This document shows, in pieces, positions 57,763 to 60,063 of a stretch of 64,000 bases of DNA. Position numbers and translations under genes: made by a program. The notes beneath the pieces are model-generated. The model was not told where the DNA came from and ran no database searches. It saw nothing but the letters and a program-made list of their open reading frames with translations. Position 1 is the stretch's first letter. Every line of letters begins with the position of its first letter. Source of the DNA: Candidatus Hydrogenedens sp. (GTDB taxonomy: Bacteria > Hydrogenedentota > Hydrogenedentia > Hydrogenedentales > Hydrogenedentaceae); assembly GCA_049968235.1 (NCBI GenBank), contig JBMFRC010000003.1, positions 160,001 to 224,000 on the forward strand, in the 5' to 3' direction.

Positions 57763-60063
57763 ATGACCATGCGAGGATATTTTATCCCTTTAATTTTTCT
57801 CTTATCCTTTACAGCAATTCTTCCTTCTTTTGCAGGCGAGAAAATTAAATATCAATTAACAATTAAGAGAGTTGGTGATGAAGGGATTGTAAATCCTGGA
57901 ATTGGGACTTTCTACTATGATGCAGGGACCACTGTTTTTCTCAACGCTATTCCGACTGCAGACTGGGCATTTGACCACTGGGAAGGTGCTGTTTCAGGGA
58001 CAGACTTATTTACTCAAGTGCTGATGGACAAACCAAGGACAGTTACCGCTGTTTTTGTACCAGCACAATGGAGGCTGACCATTGAGCATAGTGGGAATGC
58101 TACCGGTACAACTTTCCCTGCTCCCGGGGTCTATGGATTTTTAGATGGTAGAACGGTAGGAGTTAGCTCTGGCACTTCGCCGGGTGTATATTTTGGAGGC
58201 TGGAGGGGTGATGTGATAAGTAATGAAGAATTTGTACAGGTGGTTATGAATTCTGACAAATATATAAATGCACGATTCACGGATACAGGGTATACCCTTA
58301 GTATAAGTGTAATTGGTCCGGGAGGAACAACCCCCTGGCAAGGGACAGTGCATCGGTATTCAGAAGGATTATCTATATCTGTTGTATCTTATTCAACAAA
58401 TCCTTTATGGCGGTTTGACCATTGGGAAGGTGATATAGGCGATAACGAATCACGATATTATATCCTGTTGCAACTAACTATGGACCAGGACCGAAATATC
58501 ACCGCGGTATTCATTGAGAAGCCATATTATAACCTTACATTGGAAATCGTTGGCGAAGGAGGTGTTTCTTTTCAACAGGGCTTTGATGACCCCGTAACTC
58601 TATCCACAGGTATCCATGAATTTAGCATTATTGAGTGGACCTATATTCGATGTGAAAAAATAATCACTTCACCCACATGGAAATTTCTCCACTGGGAAGG
58701 AGATTTTGGTGATACATTGCCTACCTATTATCGATGTGCTTTCTCTATGGACAAAAACCGTTATGTCCGTTGCATTTTTACCAATTTGACACAGGTCCCT
58801 GATGTTATAGGAACACCTCAAAATATCGCAGAAACGACCATTATAAATGGAGATTTGATAGTCGGTAACATTACAGAAATATGTAATGATAATTATGTAT
58901 CAGGATATGTAATAGACCAATATCCACCTGCAGGGACTACTGTAGAAATAGGAAATTCTGTATCACTCTGGGTTTCCACAGGACCTTGTCCTGTATCAGT
59001 GCCAAATCTTATCGGATTAACCATAGAAGAGGCAGAGAATGCAATAAATAGTGCCGGCTTAACGCTGGGTAATGTGATGAACTCGTGTAATGATGAAATT
59101 GGGATGGGAATAGTATTTGGTCAAAATCCATTAGCGGGAGAGCAATTATTCCCCGGTAGTTCTGTAAATATTGAGGTATCTTCAGGACCCTGCCCGGCGG
59201 AAGGGATTATAGAAGGTGAAGGGATGGAGGAAGGTATGCCCGAAGGAGAAGGGACACCCGAAGGAGAGGTATGCGTCTGGATGGGAGCTTGTCCTAACTT
59301 TAGTTATGAAGGAATAAAAATGGGATATTTTGTCGGACAATTATGGAATAACTGCGATATTAATCAATCCGAAATCCCCGATGCATGGGAGATAGAAATT
59401 GTTAAGTATTTGCTGTGCAATCCTCAGGGAATATGGGAGGATAAATTTATTTGTAAATTTATTGAAAATTATAATATTCTGGCAACGGAGTCTTTATTCC
59501 ATACAACTTATTATTCCTTCCGGCATATTTTAACAGGACTTCTTACTATAGGAACCAATATGGATATTTTAAGAAACACTTTCTTTCTAACCAAAAACTA
59601 TTATCCATTTGAATATCCATCGGATAATTTCCCGTTATTGCCGGATGCGGATATTGATAATGATGAATTAACTAATTATGAGGAATACCTCAGGGTAGTC
59701 GAACTTAACGGAAGTAACAATGCATTTATTCGGAACATTTTCAATCCTTCGCCTGTTCCTCCCATTCACTCCGCAGATATAAATCAGAACCATAGAATAG
59801 AGTTGACAGAACTACTTCGCATTATTCAATTCTTTAATTCTTCAGGATTCCACTGTGAAAATGGGACAGAAGATGGTTATGCGCCGGGTTATGACGAGAG
59901 TTTCGATTTTTCATGTGAACAACACACGGCGGATTATTTGCCCCACGATTGGCATATTAGCCTTGAAGAAATTCTAAGGATGGTTCAGTTTTTCAACGCA
60001 GATGGCTATCAGATGTGTCCCTTTATTTCTGAAGATAGTTACTGTCCTATTTTCTCTGAGTAA
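57763..60063 (+). CDS. Secreted multidomain protein: signal peptide, four ~90-aa InlB-B/'Listeria-Bacteroides'-like repeats, two PASTA domains, an acidic (E-G-x)n linker and a C-terminal dockerin-like repeat pair
   Basis: Repeats end in 'WAFDHWEGAVSG', 'WRFDHWEGDIGD' and 'WKFLHWEGDFGD', plus one degenerate 'GGWRGD'. PASTA-like 'VPNLIGLTIEEAENAINSAGLTLGNV...GQNPLAGEQLFPGSSVNIEVSSGPCP'. 'EGEGMEEGMPEGEGTPEGE'. Dockerin-like 'ADINQNHRIELTELLRIIQFFNSSG' and 'DWHISLEEILRMVQFFNADG'. Confidence 0.55.
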   Translation: MTMRGYFIPLIFLLSFTAILPSFAGEKIKYQLTIKRVGDEGIVNPGIGTFYYDAGTTVFLNAIPTADWAFDHWEGAVSGTDLFTQVLMDKPRTVTAVFVPAQWRLTIEHSGNATGTTFPAPGVYGFLDGRTVGVSSGTSPGVYFGGWRGDVISNEEFVQVVMNSDKYINARFTDTGYTLSISVIGPGGTTPWQGTVHRYSEGLSISVVSYSTNPLWRFDHWEGDIGDNESRYYILLQLTMDQDRNITAVFIEKPYYNLTLEIVGEGGVSFQQGFDDPVTLSTGIHEFSIIEWTYIRCEKIITSPTWKFLHWEGDFGDTLPTYYRCAFSMDKNRYVRCIFTNLTQVPDVIGTPQNIAETTIINGDLIVGNITEICNDNYVSGYVIDQYPPAGTTVEIGNSVSLWVSTGPCPVSVPNLIGLTIEEAENAINSAGLTLGNVMNSCNDEIGMGIVFGQNPLAGEQLFPGSSVNIEVSSGPCPAEGIIEGEGMEEGMPEGEGTPEGEVCVWMGACPNFSYEGIKMGYFVGQLWNNCDINQSEIPDAWEIEIVKYLLCNPQGIWEDKFICKFIENYNILATESLFHTTYYSFRHILTGLLTIGTNMDILRNTFFLTKNYYPFEYPSDNFPLLPDADIDNDELTNYEEYLRVVELNGSNNAFIRNIFNPSPVPPIHSADINQNHRIELTELLRIIQFFNSSGFHCENGTEDGYAPGYDESFDFSCEQHTADYLPHDWHISLEEILRMVQFFNADGYQMCPFISEDSYCPIFSE

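What the first reader, a model, noticed from the sequence alone, without database searches (positions are those of the whole stretch)
57763..60063. Novel domain architecture: InlB-B-like repeats x4, PASTA x2, acidic EG repeat and a dockerin-like tail in one secreted protein
Four ~90-aa repeats each end in an F-x-H-W-E-G-D motif, recalling the Listeria-Bacteroides/InlB B-repeat 'F.GW.G' signature. Two PASTA domains follow; these usually bind peptidoglycan or beta-lactams and are found in PBPs and PknB-type kinases. Next comes an acidic linker 'EGEGMEEGMPEGEGTPEGE'. The C-terminus has two D-x-N-x-N-x-x-I-x-L-x-E-L-L-R-x-x-Q-F-F segments resembling the calcium-binding dockerin repeat pair. PASTA domains outside PBPs or kinases are unusual, and pairing them with a dockerin-like module is more so. 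The combination suggests a surface protein that binds the cell wall on one side and a cohesin-like partner on the other.
Basis: inference. Interest (0 to 1): 0.55.

Follow-up and report, generated by a model that had tools for sequence, protein, structure and literature searches.

The report
Secreted protein with dockerin-like calcium tail
This gene from an uncultured Hydrogenedentota bacterium encodes a secreted modular protein whose last ~100 residues form an undescribed, calcium-loop-bearing, dockerin-shaped tag that dozens of unrelated secreted proteins per genome share, suggesting a phylum-specific way of docking proteins outside the cell.

Summary
The ORF (57763-60063, +, 766 aa) is real and identical to a MAG protein annotated 'PASTA domain-containing protein [Candidatus Hydrogenedens sp.]'. 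Profile searches confirm four divergent InlB B-repeats (Pfam Flg_new_2, not Flg_new), two PASTA domains and an EG-rich linker.

The 'dockerin-like tail' is not a Dockerin_1 member: Pfam gives no hit, and hhalign gives 21% probability over the Ca loop only. It is nevertheless a well-defined ~97-aa module:
- It is an internal duplication of loop, helix and beta-hairpin, with four conserved Cys.
- Other copies give sub-threshold EF-hand hits (37 of 46) and Dockerin_1 hits (15 of 46).
- It has no Pfam or NCBIfam model and no literature.
- It occurs in about 2,400 protein clusters, mostly at the extreme C-terminus, sometimes N-terminal or tandem.
- Single Hydrogenedentota genomes carry at least ~19 loci, on very diverse passenger domains.

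Best reading: a Ca2+-dependent docking or anchoring module that works like a dockerin. No partner was found. The organism is predicted Gram-negative, so 'PASTA binds its own wall at the surface' is doubtful. Verdict: partly supported; a new variant of a known kind.

The parts
57763..57834 (+). Predicted Sec signal peptide (aa 1-24; cleavage probably after S-F-A24)
   Evidence: This is the only hydrophobic segment in the protein (Kyte-Doolittle mean 1.89 over aa 6-22). A24, E26 and K27 are invariant in the orthologues. No signal-peptide predictor was available, so this is an inference.
57841..58788 (+). Four divergent InlB B-repeat (Flg_new_2) units: aa 27-100, 101-173, 174-252, 253-342
   Evidence: Pfam PF18998 at E 2.3e-16 / 4.1e-18, three stretches. 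Mutual similarity gives z 9-22 for five of six pairs; R2-R4 is z 2.6. FxHWEG is present in units 1, 3 and 4; unit 2 has YFGGWRGD.
58798..59196 (+). Two PASTA domains (aa ~346-410 and 411-478)
   Evidence: Pfam PF03793 at E 5.5e-26, two stretches. NCBIfam PknB_PASTA_kin aligns only to its PASTA region and is far below the cut-off (81 against 450 bits). PASTA1 against PASTA2 gives z 19. Orthologues P0009 and P0010 lack the second PASTA.
59197..59268 (+). Acidic EG-rich low-complexity linker (aa 479-502)
   Evidence: The sequence is AEGIIEGEGMEEGMPEGEGTPEGE. An 18-bp tandem repeat lies at 59230-59274. Length varies among orthologues.
59269..59742 (+). Middle domain ('MID', aa 503-660): all-helical, Cys-containing, unclassified, with two Ca-type loops
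59356..59391 (+). MID Ca-type loop 1: D532-I-N-Q-S-E-I-P-D-A-W-E543 (resembles a bacterial TSP3 repeat or EF-hand loop), followed by a helix
   Evidence: D532, N534, S536, I538, P539, D540, W542 and E543 are invariant in the orthologues. D532, D540 and E543 are >= 90% conserved across the divergent family. hhalign places this loop and helix on the dockerin F-hand without gaps, but at only 12% probability.
59650..59685 (+). MID Ca-type loop 2: D630-I-D-N-D-E-L-T-N-Y-E-E641, followed by a helix
   Evidence: D634 and N638 are invariant, and D630, D632 and E641 are >= 90% conserved, across the family. A weak alignment to the calmodulin EF-hand loop was seen.
59743..60060 (+). C-terminal twin loop-helix-hairpin module (aa 661-766; conserved core aa ~669-762), the 'dockerin-like tail'
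59776..59811 (+). Module loop 1: D672-I-N-Q-N-H-R-I-E-L-T-E683, a canonical 12-residue EF-hand-type loop, followed by the helix LLRIIQFFN
   Evidence: Conservation in 203 copies: position 1 D 100%; position 3 N/D 92%; position 5 D/N 95%; position 8 I/V 96%; position 12 E 100%. Pfam EF-hand_6 gives E 0.07 here, and 26.2 bits (above the 25-bit cut-off) in family member P0126.
59932..59970 (+). Module loop 2: D724-Y-L-P-H-D-W-H-I-S-L-E-E736, a 13-residue non-canonical loop, followed by the helix ILRMVQFFN
   Evidence: Conservation across the family: D724 100%, Y725 95%, P727 83%, D729 D/N 97%, W730 99%, E736 100%. It is one residue longer than loop 1 in the half-against-half alignment.
60160..61320 (+). 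Downstream 386-aa multi-pass membrane protein of unknown function (syntenic neighbour; a link to the finding is unproven)
   Evidence: There is no Pfam hit. A 36%-identical homologue sits directly downstream of the orthologue in L001, where trmB is also upstream.

Best explanation
The gene encodes a Sec-exported, disulfide-containing, multi-domain extracytoplasmic protein of a Candidatus Hydrogenedens bacterium. The domain order is: signal peptide, four divergent InlB B-repeats, two PASTA domains, an acidic EG linker, a helical middle domain with two Ca2+-type loops, and a C-terminal ~97-aa module.

The C-terminal module is a previously undescribed family at the edge of the EF-hand/dockerin clan. 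Each half is a Ca2+-type loop, a 12-residue helix and a short beta-hairpin. The halves are probably pinned by two disulfides (C698-C718 and C752-C761).

The most likely mechanism is that the module folds around Ca2+ outside the cytoplasm and acts as a position-independent docking or anchoring tag. It would tether this protein, and dozens of other secreted proteins per genome, to a shared receptor on the cell envelope or in an extracellular assembly, functionally like a dockerin. The passengers on other proteins include adhesin-like repeats, LRR, Ig-like and PKD domains, papain-type peptidases, FGE-sulfatase-like domains and beta-helix proteins. In this protein the B-repeat/PASTA part is the passenger, a ligand-binding or spacer stalk.

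Shown: the domain identities, the duplication, the conservation, the fold class, the genomic expansion and the position independence.
Inferred: Ca2+ binding, the disulfide pairing, export beyond the periplasm, and the existence and nature of a receptor.
For: Domain identities: Pfam PASTA x2 and Flg_new_2.

The module is a discrete mobile unit. An exhaustive search gives 2,363 representatives, and hits are confined to the last ~97 aa at 50-65% identity in otherwise unrelated proteins.

Position: 183 of 212 module-bearing proteins have it within 15 aa of the C-terminus. In 16 it lies directly after the signal peptide, and others carry tandem copies. The N-terminal cases carry the same kinds of passenger domains.

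Consensus and internal duplication, with near-invariant Ca-ligand positions and four Cys.

Family-wide weak profile links: EF-hand_6 37/46, EF-hand_5 best E 1.2e-6, Dockerin_1 15/46. Genuine dockerins give the same kind of sub-threshold EF-hand hits.

Expansion: at least 595 pattern hits in reference genomes. Among the best 80 loci, 18-19 come from each of three Hydrogenedentota MAGs, and 95 module ORFs lie in 741 kb of loci.

Passengers are diverse. About half of all copies are preceded by a G-E-G-E-type linker.
Against: No Ca2+ binding, partner or localisation has been demonstrated.

The module is about 30 aa larger than a dockerin. It has beta-hairpins and disulfides that dockerins lack, and its second loop is non-canonical; in this protein that loop also lacks the consensus Asn at position 726.

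No gene family recurs next to module genes, and no cohesin was sought genome-wide.

The phylum is predicted diderm. How such proteins would cross the outer membrane is unknown, so a periplasmic location cannot be excluded.

Confidence: 0.55

Rival explanations
1. The C-terminal module is a secretion or sorting signal domain, analogous to the T9SS C-terminal domain or to sortase/exosortase tags. An export or attachment machinery would recognise it and possibly remove it; it would not be a binding module.
For: It lies predominantly at the extreme C-terminus (183 of 212). There are many copies per genome on diverse secreted proteins, and the distribution is lineage-restricted. The phylum is predicted diderm, so some dedicated route across the outer membrane is needed.
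Against: It also occurs directly after the N-terminal signal peptide, internally and in tandem (up to 3-4 copies), with the same passenger types. There is no transmembrane segment or basic tail. There is no NCBIfam sorting-signal hit. The fold is a helical Ca-loop pair, not a beta-sandwich. No conserved neighbouring machinery gene was found.
Confidence: 0.15
2. The module and the two middle-domain loops are simply Ca2+-dependent folding or stability elements, or Ca2+ sensors or buffers. They would keep the protein unfolded until it reaches a Ca2+-rich extracytoplasmic space, as RTX repeats and bacterial TSP3 repeats do. There would be no dedicated partner.
For: The C-terminal 266 aa contains four EF-hand-type loops whose ligand positions are the most conserved residues. 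Sub-threshold hits go mainly to EF-hand models. No partner was found.
Against: Sequence conservation between paralogues is very high (50-65%) and extends over both helices and both hairpins, including R686/Q689/N692 and R739/Q742/N745 (94-99% conserved). That is more than Ca ligation needs and is typical of a shared interaction surface. Placement as a terminal, linker-separated unit resembles docking modules.
Confidence: 0.2
3. It is a genuine, if divergent, cellulosome-type dockerin that binds a cohesin-bearing scaffoldin. PASTA would anchor the complex to peptidoglycan.
For: The top structural matches are dockerins. Fifteen of 46 copies give weak Dockerin_1 hits. The module is a duplicated loop-helix segment at the C-terminus after a flexible linker.
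Against: There is no PF00404 match for this protein. hhalign gives 20.7% and covers only the loop. The dockerin hallmarks are absent: Asp at loop position 12, and the Ser-Thr and Lys-Arg recognition pairs. The module has extra hairpins and disulfides. Passenger domains are not carbohydrate-active enzymes. No cohesin was identified. The host is predicted Gram-negative, so its peptidoglycan is periplasmic.
Confidence: 0.07
4. The tail's resemblance to Ca-binding repeats is compositional or due to chance, and the region is an unstructured low-complexity tail.
For: There is no significant Pfam or PDB sequence hit for this copy.
Against: Thousands of homologues exist with near-invariant positions. 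The AF2 model is confident, at pLDDT 94.6. Half against half gives z 17.
Confidence: 0.01

Closest known systems
Type I/II dockerin modules of cellulosomes (Pfam PF00404, EF-hand clan)
   Same: Both are tandem duplications of a Ca2+-type 12-residue loop followed by a helix (an 'F-hand' with no entering helix). Both are usually C-terminal after a flexible linker, occur in many copies per genome on unrelated secreted proteins, and can occasionally be N-terminal or tandem. Dockerins are the best structural matches.
   Different: There is no significant profile match. The module is ~97 aa, against ~60-70 aa for a dockerin. Each helix is followed by a beta-hairpin, and there are four conserved Cys. 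Loop position 12 is Glu, not Asp. The second loop has 13 residues and a conserved D-Y-x-P-x-D-W. The dockerin cohesin-recognition pairs are absent. Passengers are adhesin-like or protease-like domains, not glycoside hydrolases. No cohesin partner is known. The host is a predicted Gram-negative candidate phylum.
Canonical EF-hand pairs (Pfam EF-hand_1/5/6/7)
   Same: Loop 1 fits D-x-[DN]-x-[DN]-x-x-[IV]-x-x-x-E exactly. Most family copies give sub-threshold EF-hand hits, and one (P0126) passes the EF-hand_6 cut-off. The units are paired.
   Different: No entering (E) helix precedes either loop in the model. The context is extracytoplasmic and disulfide-bonded. Hairpin extensions are present. 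This protein's own score is below threshold (E 0.07).
Bacterial thrombospondin type 3-like repeats (Pfam TSP3_bac, PF18884)
   Same: The middle-domain loops D-x-N-x-S-x-I-P-D-x-W-E and D-x-D-x-D-G-x-x-N-x-E-E resemble the D-x-D-x-D-G-[IL]-P-D-x-W-E Ca-binding motif. That motif is quoted from my own knowledge. Only weak TSP3_bac hits were seen, in 3 of 26 copies.
   Different: The loops are single and embedded in a ~160-aa helical domain, not a tandem array of short repeats. No match is significant.
Listeria InlB B-repeat / Flg_new_2 repeats
   Same: The four N-terminal units match PF18998 well above threshold.
   Different: There is no internalin LRR cap and no GW or LPXTG anchor. The classical Flg_new model (PF09479) does not match. 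The ligand is unknown.
PASTA domains of PknB/Stk1 kinases and class B PBPs
   Same: Two tandem PASTA units score 90.7 bits. The closest NCBIfam alignment is to the PASTA region of Stk1-family kinases.
   Different: There is no kinase or transpeptidase domain and no transmembrane anchor. PASTA here is an internal element of a secreted multi-domain protein in a predicted diderm. One PASTA is dispensable in orthologues P0009 and P0010, where an EG repeat replaces it.

Membership tests
PASTA (PF03793) | Profile match above the Pfam gathering score | tested here: met
   90.7 bits against 23.2, E 5.5e-26, two stretches; the best stretch is aa 411-474 and covers the full model, positions 1-64 of 64.
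PknB/Stk1-type PASTA kinase or PBP | Ser/Thr kinase or transpeptidase catalytic domain plus a membrane anchor | tested here: not met
   NCBIfam PknB_PASTA_kin scores 81 bits against a cut-off of 450 and aligns only to model positions 365-500, the PASTA part. There is no Pkinase or Transpeptidase Pfam hit. The only hydrophobic segment is the signal peptide.
Divergent InlB B-repeat (Flg_new_2, PF18998) | Profile match above the gathering score; repeated ~70-aa units | tested here: met
   60-65.6 bits against 23.6, three stretches. The fourth unit is shown to be homologous by internal comparison.
   There is no PF09479 hit at E <= 10.
Dockerin type I (PF00404) | Profile match to Dockerin_1 | tested here: not met
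   There is no hit at E <= 10 for the protein or for its tail alone. Fifteen of 46 sister copies hit only weakly (best E 6.6e-4). hhalign against six Pfam-verified dockerins gives probability 20.7% over 22 columns.
Dockerin type I (PF00404) | Duplicated ~22-residue segment, each a Ca2+ loop plus helix (F-hand pair) | tested here: met
Dockerin type I (PF00404) | Compact ~60-70-aa all-helical module; loop position 12 Asp; Ser-Thr and Lys-Arg recognition residues at segment positions 10-11 and 17-18 (features quoted from my own knowledge) | tested here: not met
   The module core is ~97 aa with two beta-hairpins and four Cys. Position 12 is Glu in 100% of copies. Positions 10-11 are L-[ST] and positions 17-18 are I-Q.
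Dockerin type I (PF00404) | A cohesin partner encoded in the same genome, and Ca2+-dependent binding to it | not tested
Neighbourhood analysis of 80 loci found no recurrent candidate.
EF-hand (PF13405, PF00036, PF13202) | Canonical 12-residue loop with ligands at positions 1, 3, 5 and 12 and a hydrophobic residue at position 8 | tested here: met
   The loop is D672-I-N674-Q-N676-H-R-I679-E-L-T-E683, and the family conservation at these positions is 92-100%.
EF-hand (PF13405, PF00036, PF13202) | Profile match above the gathering score, and a helix-loop-helix with an entering helix | tested here: not met
   This protein scores 13.3 bits on EF-hand_6 against a cut-off of 25 (E 0.07). The model has no helix before either loop. 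One relative, P0126, does pass, with 26.2 bits.
C-terminal protein-sorting signals (T9SS CTD, PEP-CTERM, LPXTG and similar; NCBIfam models) | Profile match, an obligate C-terminal position, and a transmembrane/basic tail or a beta-sandwich CTD | tested here: not met
   There is no NCBIfam hit other than the PASTA region. The module also occurs N-terminally and in tandem. There is no C-terminal hydrophobic segment. The model is a helix/hairpin fold.

The most novel reading that the evidence does not exclude
Hydrogenedentota have a cohesin-independent, Ca2+-dependent protein-assembly system of their own. In this reading the ~97-aa twin-loop module is the 'plug'. The ~160-aa helical middle domain is the 'socket': it also has two Ca-type loops and forms arrays of up to six copies capped by one module, much like a scaffoldin (P0123, P0147). 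Proteins carrying both, such as this one, could chain head-to-tail into a surface matrix that displays proteases, adhesins and sulfatase-like domains.
Probability: 0.1. Interest if true: 0.75.

Novelty: new variant of a known kind. Interest (0 to 1): 0.45.

Why it matters
Hydrogenedentota are a globally distributed, uncultured phylum whose cell biology is essentially unknown. A single, highly conserved tag shared by dozens of secreted proteins per genome, and present in about 2,400 protein clusters, points to a common mechanism for holding proteins at the envelope or in an extracellular complex.

Defining the tag as a family would have several practical uses:
- It would annotate thousands of 'hypothetical' proteins at once.
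- It would give a computational handle on the phylum's surface proteome and secretome.
- It would extend the dockerin / F-hand design to a disulfide-stabilised form in a predicted diderm.
- It would provide a compact Ca2+-dependent module that could be tested as a new orthogonal docking pair.

The analysis also shows PASTA used as a generic internal building block of secreted proteins, outside the kinase and PBP context.

Tried and rejected
1. Pfam and NCBIfam on the whole protein, on the C-terminal 264 aa and on the last 103 aa. None gave a dockerin, TSP3 or sorting-signal hit.
2. phmmer and profile HMM searches against PDB sequences. Nothing was significant; only sub-threshold EF-hand proteins appeared.
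3. hhalign of the module and of the middle domain against a small dockerin alignment. Probabilities were 20.7% and 12%, covering the loop region only.
5. Neighbourhood enrichment across 80 Hydrogenedentota loci (478 non-overlapping ORFs), looking for a conserved partner or machinery gene. Only generic response regulators and GFO/IDH/MocA oxidoreductases recurred.
6. Literature searches for motif strings and for Hydrogenedentota together with dockerin, PASTA or EF-hand. Nothing relevant was found.
7. A six-frame scan of the window for further copies of the module motif. There were none.
8. Rfam and promoter/terminator scans around the gene. Results were at background level.
9. A word-indexed homologue search with the 106-aa module returned only 18 short proteins. 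The exhaustive search was needed to see the family.

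Full report
**1. The observation**

The window has an ORF at exactly 57763..60063 on the + strand, 766 aa. Its product is 100% identical to an NCBI MAG protein named 'PASTA domain-containing protein [Candidatus Hydrogenedens sp.]' on a 267-kb contig. Full-length orthologues at 67-75% identity exist in other assemblies (alignment A1).

The surrounding genes are ordinary housekeeping genes: gap, pgk, pnp, an M16 peptidase, trmB ending 10 nt upstream, metH, an ABC transporter and a T2SS/T4P ATPase.

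**2. N-terminal two-thirds: confirmed, with corrections**

Pfam gives PASTA (PF03793) at E 5.5e-26 with two stretches. It gives Flg_new_2 (PF18998, 'Divergent InlB B-repeat domain') at E 2e-16 to 4e-18 with three stretches.

Internal comparison shows four homologous units of 73-90 aa (z 9-22 for five of six pairs; R2-R4 is weak at z 2.6). F-x-H-W-E-G is present in three of them, and unit 2 has YFGGWRGD.

The protein has one hydrophobic segment, at the N-terminus, followed by a conserved SFA|GEK site. This fits a Sec signal peptide, but that is an inference because no dedicated predictor was available.

The EG-rich acidic linker (aa 479-502) is real. It is partly encoded by an 18-bp tandem repeat and varies in length among orthologues. 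In P0009 and P0010 a longer EG repeat replaces the second PASTA altogether.

**3. The tail**

*Profile searches.* No dockerin profile hit is obtained for the protein, for its last 264 aa or for its last 103 aa, even at E <= 10. The only hint is EF-hand_6 at E 0.07.

*Family size and placement.* The region is far from compositional. An exhaustive phmmer search of 1.84 billion cluster representatives with aa 501-766 returns 2,363 proteins at E <= 1e-3 and 1,825 at E <= 1e-10. Nearly all hits are confined to the last ~97 residues, at 50-65% identity, in proteins of 100 to more than 2,500 aa that are otherwise unrelated.
- 183 have the module within 15 aa of the C-terminus.
- 16 have it directly after the signal peptide.
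- 33 carry two to four matched stretches (some overlapping or half-unit); several of these are clear tandem copies.

*Consensus.* The consensus of 203 copies is H-[ST]-A-D-x-[ND]-x-[DN]-x-x-I-x-L-[ST]-E-L-L-R-[VI]-I-Q-F-[FY]-N-S-G-G-[FY]-H-C-x-x-G-T-E-D-G-Y-A-P-G ... C-x-P-H-x-S-D-Y-x-P-x-D-W-x-I-x-L-S-E-L-L-R-x-I-Q-F-[FY]-N-x-G-G-Y-x-x-C-P-x-x-[TS]-E-D-G-[FY]-C-P-G. D672, E683, C698, D724, W730 and E736 are conserved in >= 99% of copies. The two halves are an evident duplication (z 17).

*The loops.* Loop 1 (D672-x-N-x-N-x-x-I-x-x-x-E683) is a textbook EF-hand-type loop. Loop 2 is one residue longer and non-canonical, with a D-Y-x-P-x-D-W signature.

**4. Structure of the module**

With a 46-sequence alignment, AlphaFold2 gives pLDDT 94.6 and pTM 0.84. 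Each half is a loop, a 12-residue helix and a beta-hairpin, and no helix precedes either loop.

- Foldseek: dockerin chains fill most of ranks 2-19, with TM about 0.5 normalised to the dockerin, but E > 1.

Each score is individually weak. The enrichment of one small fold class at the top of two independent searches is what carries weight.

**5. Sequence-profile links for the module family**

- Scanning 46 module copies one by one gives EF-hand_6 in 37, EF-hand_1 in 27, EF-hand_7 in 21, EF-hand_5 in 19 (best E 1.2e-6) and Dockerin_1 in 15 (best E 6.6e-4).
- One relative, P0126, exceeds the EF-hand_6 gathering score.
- Six genuine dockerins, verified as Dockerin_1 at E 1e-17 to 1e-23, give the same sort of sub-threshold EF-hand hits.
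- hhalign of the module profile against those dockerins gives only 20.7% probability, restricted to the Ca loop.

I conclude that the module is an F-hand pair of the dockerin/EF-hand kind but a distinct family. It is larger than a dockerin, has a hairpin after each helix, has four conserved Cys, has Glu rather than Asp at loop position 12, and lacks the dockerin recognition residues. The likely disulfides, C698-C718 and C752-C761, are inferred from the positions of the Cys relative to the hairpins.

**6.

Between the EG linker and the module lies a ~160-aa domain (aa 503-660).

- AF2 predicts it as all-helical, with pLDDT ~90 over its first 110 residues.
- It is a repeatable unit. P0123 has six copies or partial copies, P0147 has four, and P0128, P0130 and P0135 have three to four. 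These arrays are usually capped by one C-terminal module.
- Across this family (20-29% identity) the conserved positions are one Cys pair (C510/C552) and two Ca-type loops: D532-x-N-x-S-x-I-P-D-x-W-E543 and D630-x-D-x-D-G-x-x-N-x-E-E641. Each loop is followed by a helix.

The C-terminal 266 aa therefore contains four EF-hand-type loops.

**7. Genomic behaviour of the module**

A scan of one genome per species found at least 595 pattern matches, of which 568 were confirmed. The best 80 loci all lie in Hydrogenedentota MAGs. This includes Ca. Hydrogenedens terephthalaticus and several MAGs whose record titles say 'uncultured Nitrospirales'. Three single MAGs contribute 18-19 loci each.

In 741 kb of these loci there are 95 module-bearing ORFs with a median length of 940 aa.

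Passenger domains are very diverse: Bact_surface_Ig-like, Flg_new_2, FGE-sulfatase, PASTA, CHRD, beta-helix, Kelch, Peptidase_C1, LRR, PKD, C-type lectin and PETase-like hydrolase. When the module is N-terminal, the passengers are of the same kinds.

About half of all copies are preceded by a G-E-G-E-type linker. All named members are Hydrogenedentota except one labelled Competibacteraceae.

No gene family recurs next to module genes. No paper in the library mentions the motif, or dockerins, PASTA or EF-hands in this phylum.

**8. Mechanism**

These features together are the signature of a docking or anchoring module, not a cleavable sorting signal:
- a position-independent, linker-separated, strongly conserved module;
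- Ca-ligand residues arranged as an F-hand pair;
- dozens of otherwise unrelated secreted proteins per genome carrying it.

I therefore propose that the module folds around Ca2+ outside the cytoplasm and tethers its passengers to a common receptor, which may be a protein or a glycan. In this protein the B-repeat/PASTA stalk is the passenger.

Hydrogenedentota are predicted Gram-negative, with the Raetz pathway in more than 94% of genomes (PMC11406978). PASTA may instead be a spacer, may act in the periplasm, or may bind foreign peptidoglycan. That one PASTA is dispensable in orthologues favours a spacer-like role, but this is inference.

Rival explanations are a sorting signal, a partner-less Ca2+ folding or stability element, and a true cohesin-binding dockerin. 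They are weighed in the Rival explanations section.

**9. Comparison and novelty**

Membership of PASTA and of Flg_new_2 was tested and met. Membership of Dockerin_1, of the canonical EF-hand families and of the known sorting-signal families was tested and not met, although the F-hand-pair architecture is met.

The protein itself is already deposited, and its architecture is recurrent in the phylum, so 'novel architecture' is overstated. What is new is that the tail defines a large family with no Pfam or NCBIfam model, best described as a disulfide-stabilised, hairpin-extended variant of the dockerin design. An equally unclassified Ca-loop helical domain can accompany it. I rate this a new variant of a known kind, with interest about 0.45.

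The most novel reading still open is that the middle-domain arrays are the receptors for the module, which would make this a self-contained assembly system. I give that about 10%.

Noticed in passing
window 60160-61320 (+); L001 6488-7441: A 386-aa protein with a signal-like N-terminus and many hydrophobic segments lies directly downstream and has no Pfam family. A 36%-identical homologue occupies the same position after the orthologue in L001, where trmB is also upstream. The order trmB, target, membrane protein is therefore conserved in at least one other genome.
   Followed up: partly
window 57097-57753 and 57763: The tRNA (m7G46) methyltransferase gene trmB ends 10 nt before the start codon of the secreted protein. 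This suggests co-transcription of a housekeeping gene with a surface-protein gene.
   Followed up: no
P0009 and P0010 (alignment A1, columns ~420-500): In two orthologues the second PASTA domain is replaced by a long (EG-x-x)n acidic repeat. The rest of the protein, including the middle domain and the module, is conserved.
   Followed up: partly
P0123 (1359 aa), P0147 (733 aa), P0128, P0130, P0135: These large proteins consist of 3-6 tandem copies of the ~160-aa helical Ca-loop middle domain, usually capped by one C-terminal module. The layout resembles a scaffoldin.
   Followed up: partly
L001, L005, L007, L008 and other loci from assemblies CAZJTZ01, CAYXPO01, CAYYRW01, CAZZMK01 and CAYMLC01: MAGs whose titles read 'uncultured Nitrospirales bacterium' carry dozens of the Hydrogenedentota module. 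One of them (L001) has a syntenic orthologue of the target at 58% identity, with trmB at 68%. The taxonomic label in these record titles is probably wrong.
   Followed up: no
L016 (Candidatus Hydrogenedens sp. AMR_MDS_2428): The pgk-pnp-M16 peptidase block is conserved at 72-89% amino-acid identity with the window. However, trmB and the target gene do not follow it there. Instead, a different module-bearing gene converges on the block.
   Followed up: no
window 33579-36401 (+): This is a 940-aa Ser/Thr protein kinase whose extracytoplasmic part is a PhoPQ_related domain (PF10142, E 2.9e-43), not PASTA. In this organism PASTA is therefore found on secreted modular proteins and not on this kinase.
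   Followed up: no
window 28181-30646 (-): This 821-aa ORF fuses an extracellular solute-binding protein domain (SBP_bac_1) to an ABC permease domain (BPD_transp_1) in one polypeptide. A second permease gene lies next to it (26506-28200).
   Followed up: no
window 61321-62235: This ~900-bp stretch between the membrane-protein gene and the GFO/IDH/MocA oxidoreductase gene has only implausible ORFs on the opposite strand. It has no Rfam match at E <= 0.01.
   Followed up: partly
P0071: One module-bearing Flg_new_2 protein is labelled Candidatus Competibacteraceae (Gammaproteobacteria). This is either a mis-binned contig or evidence that the module occurs outside Hydrogenedentota.
   Followed up: no
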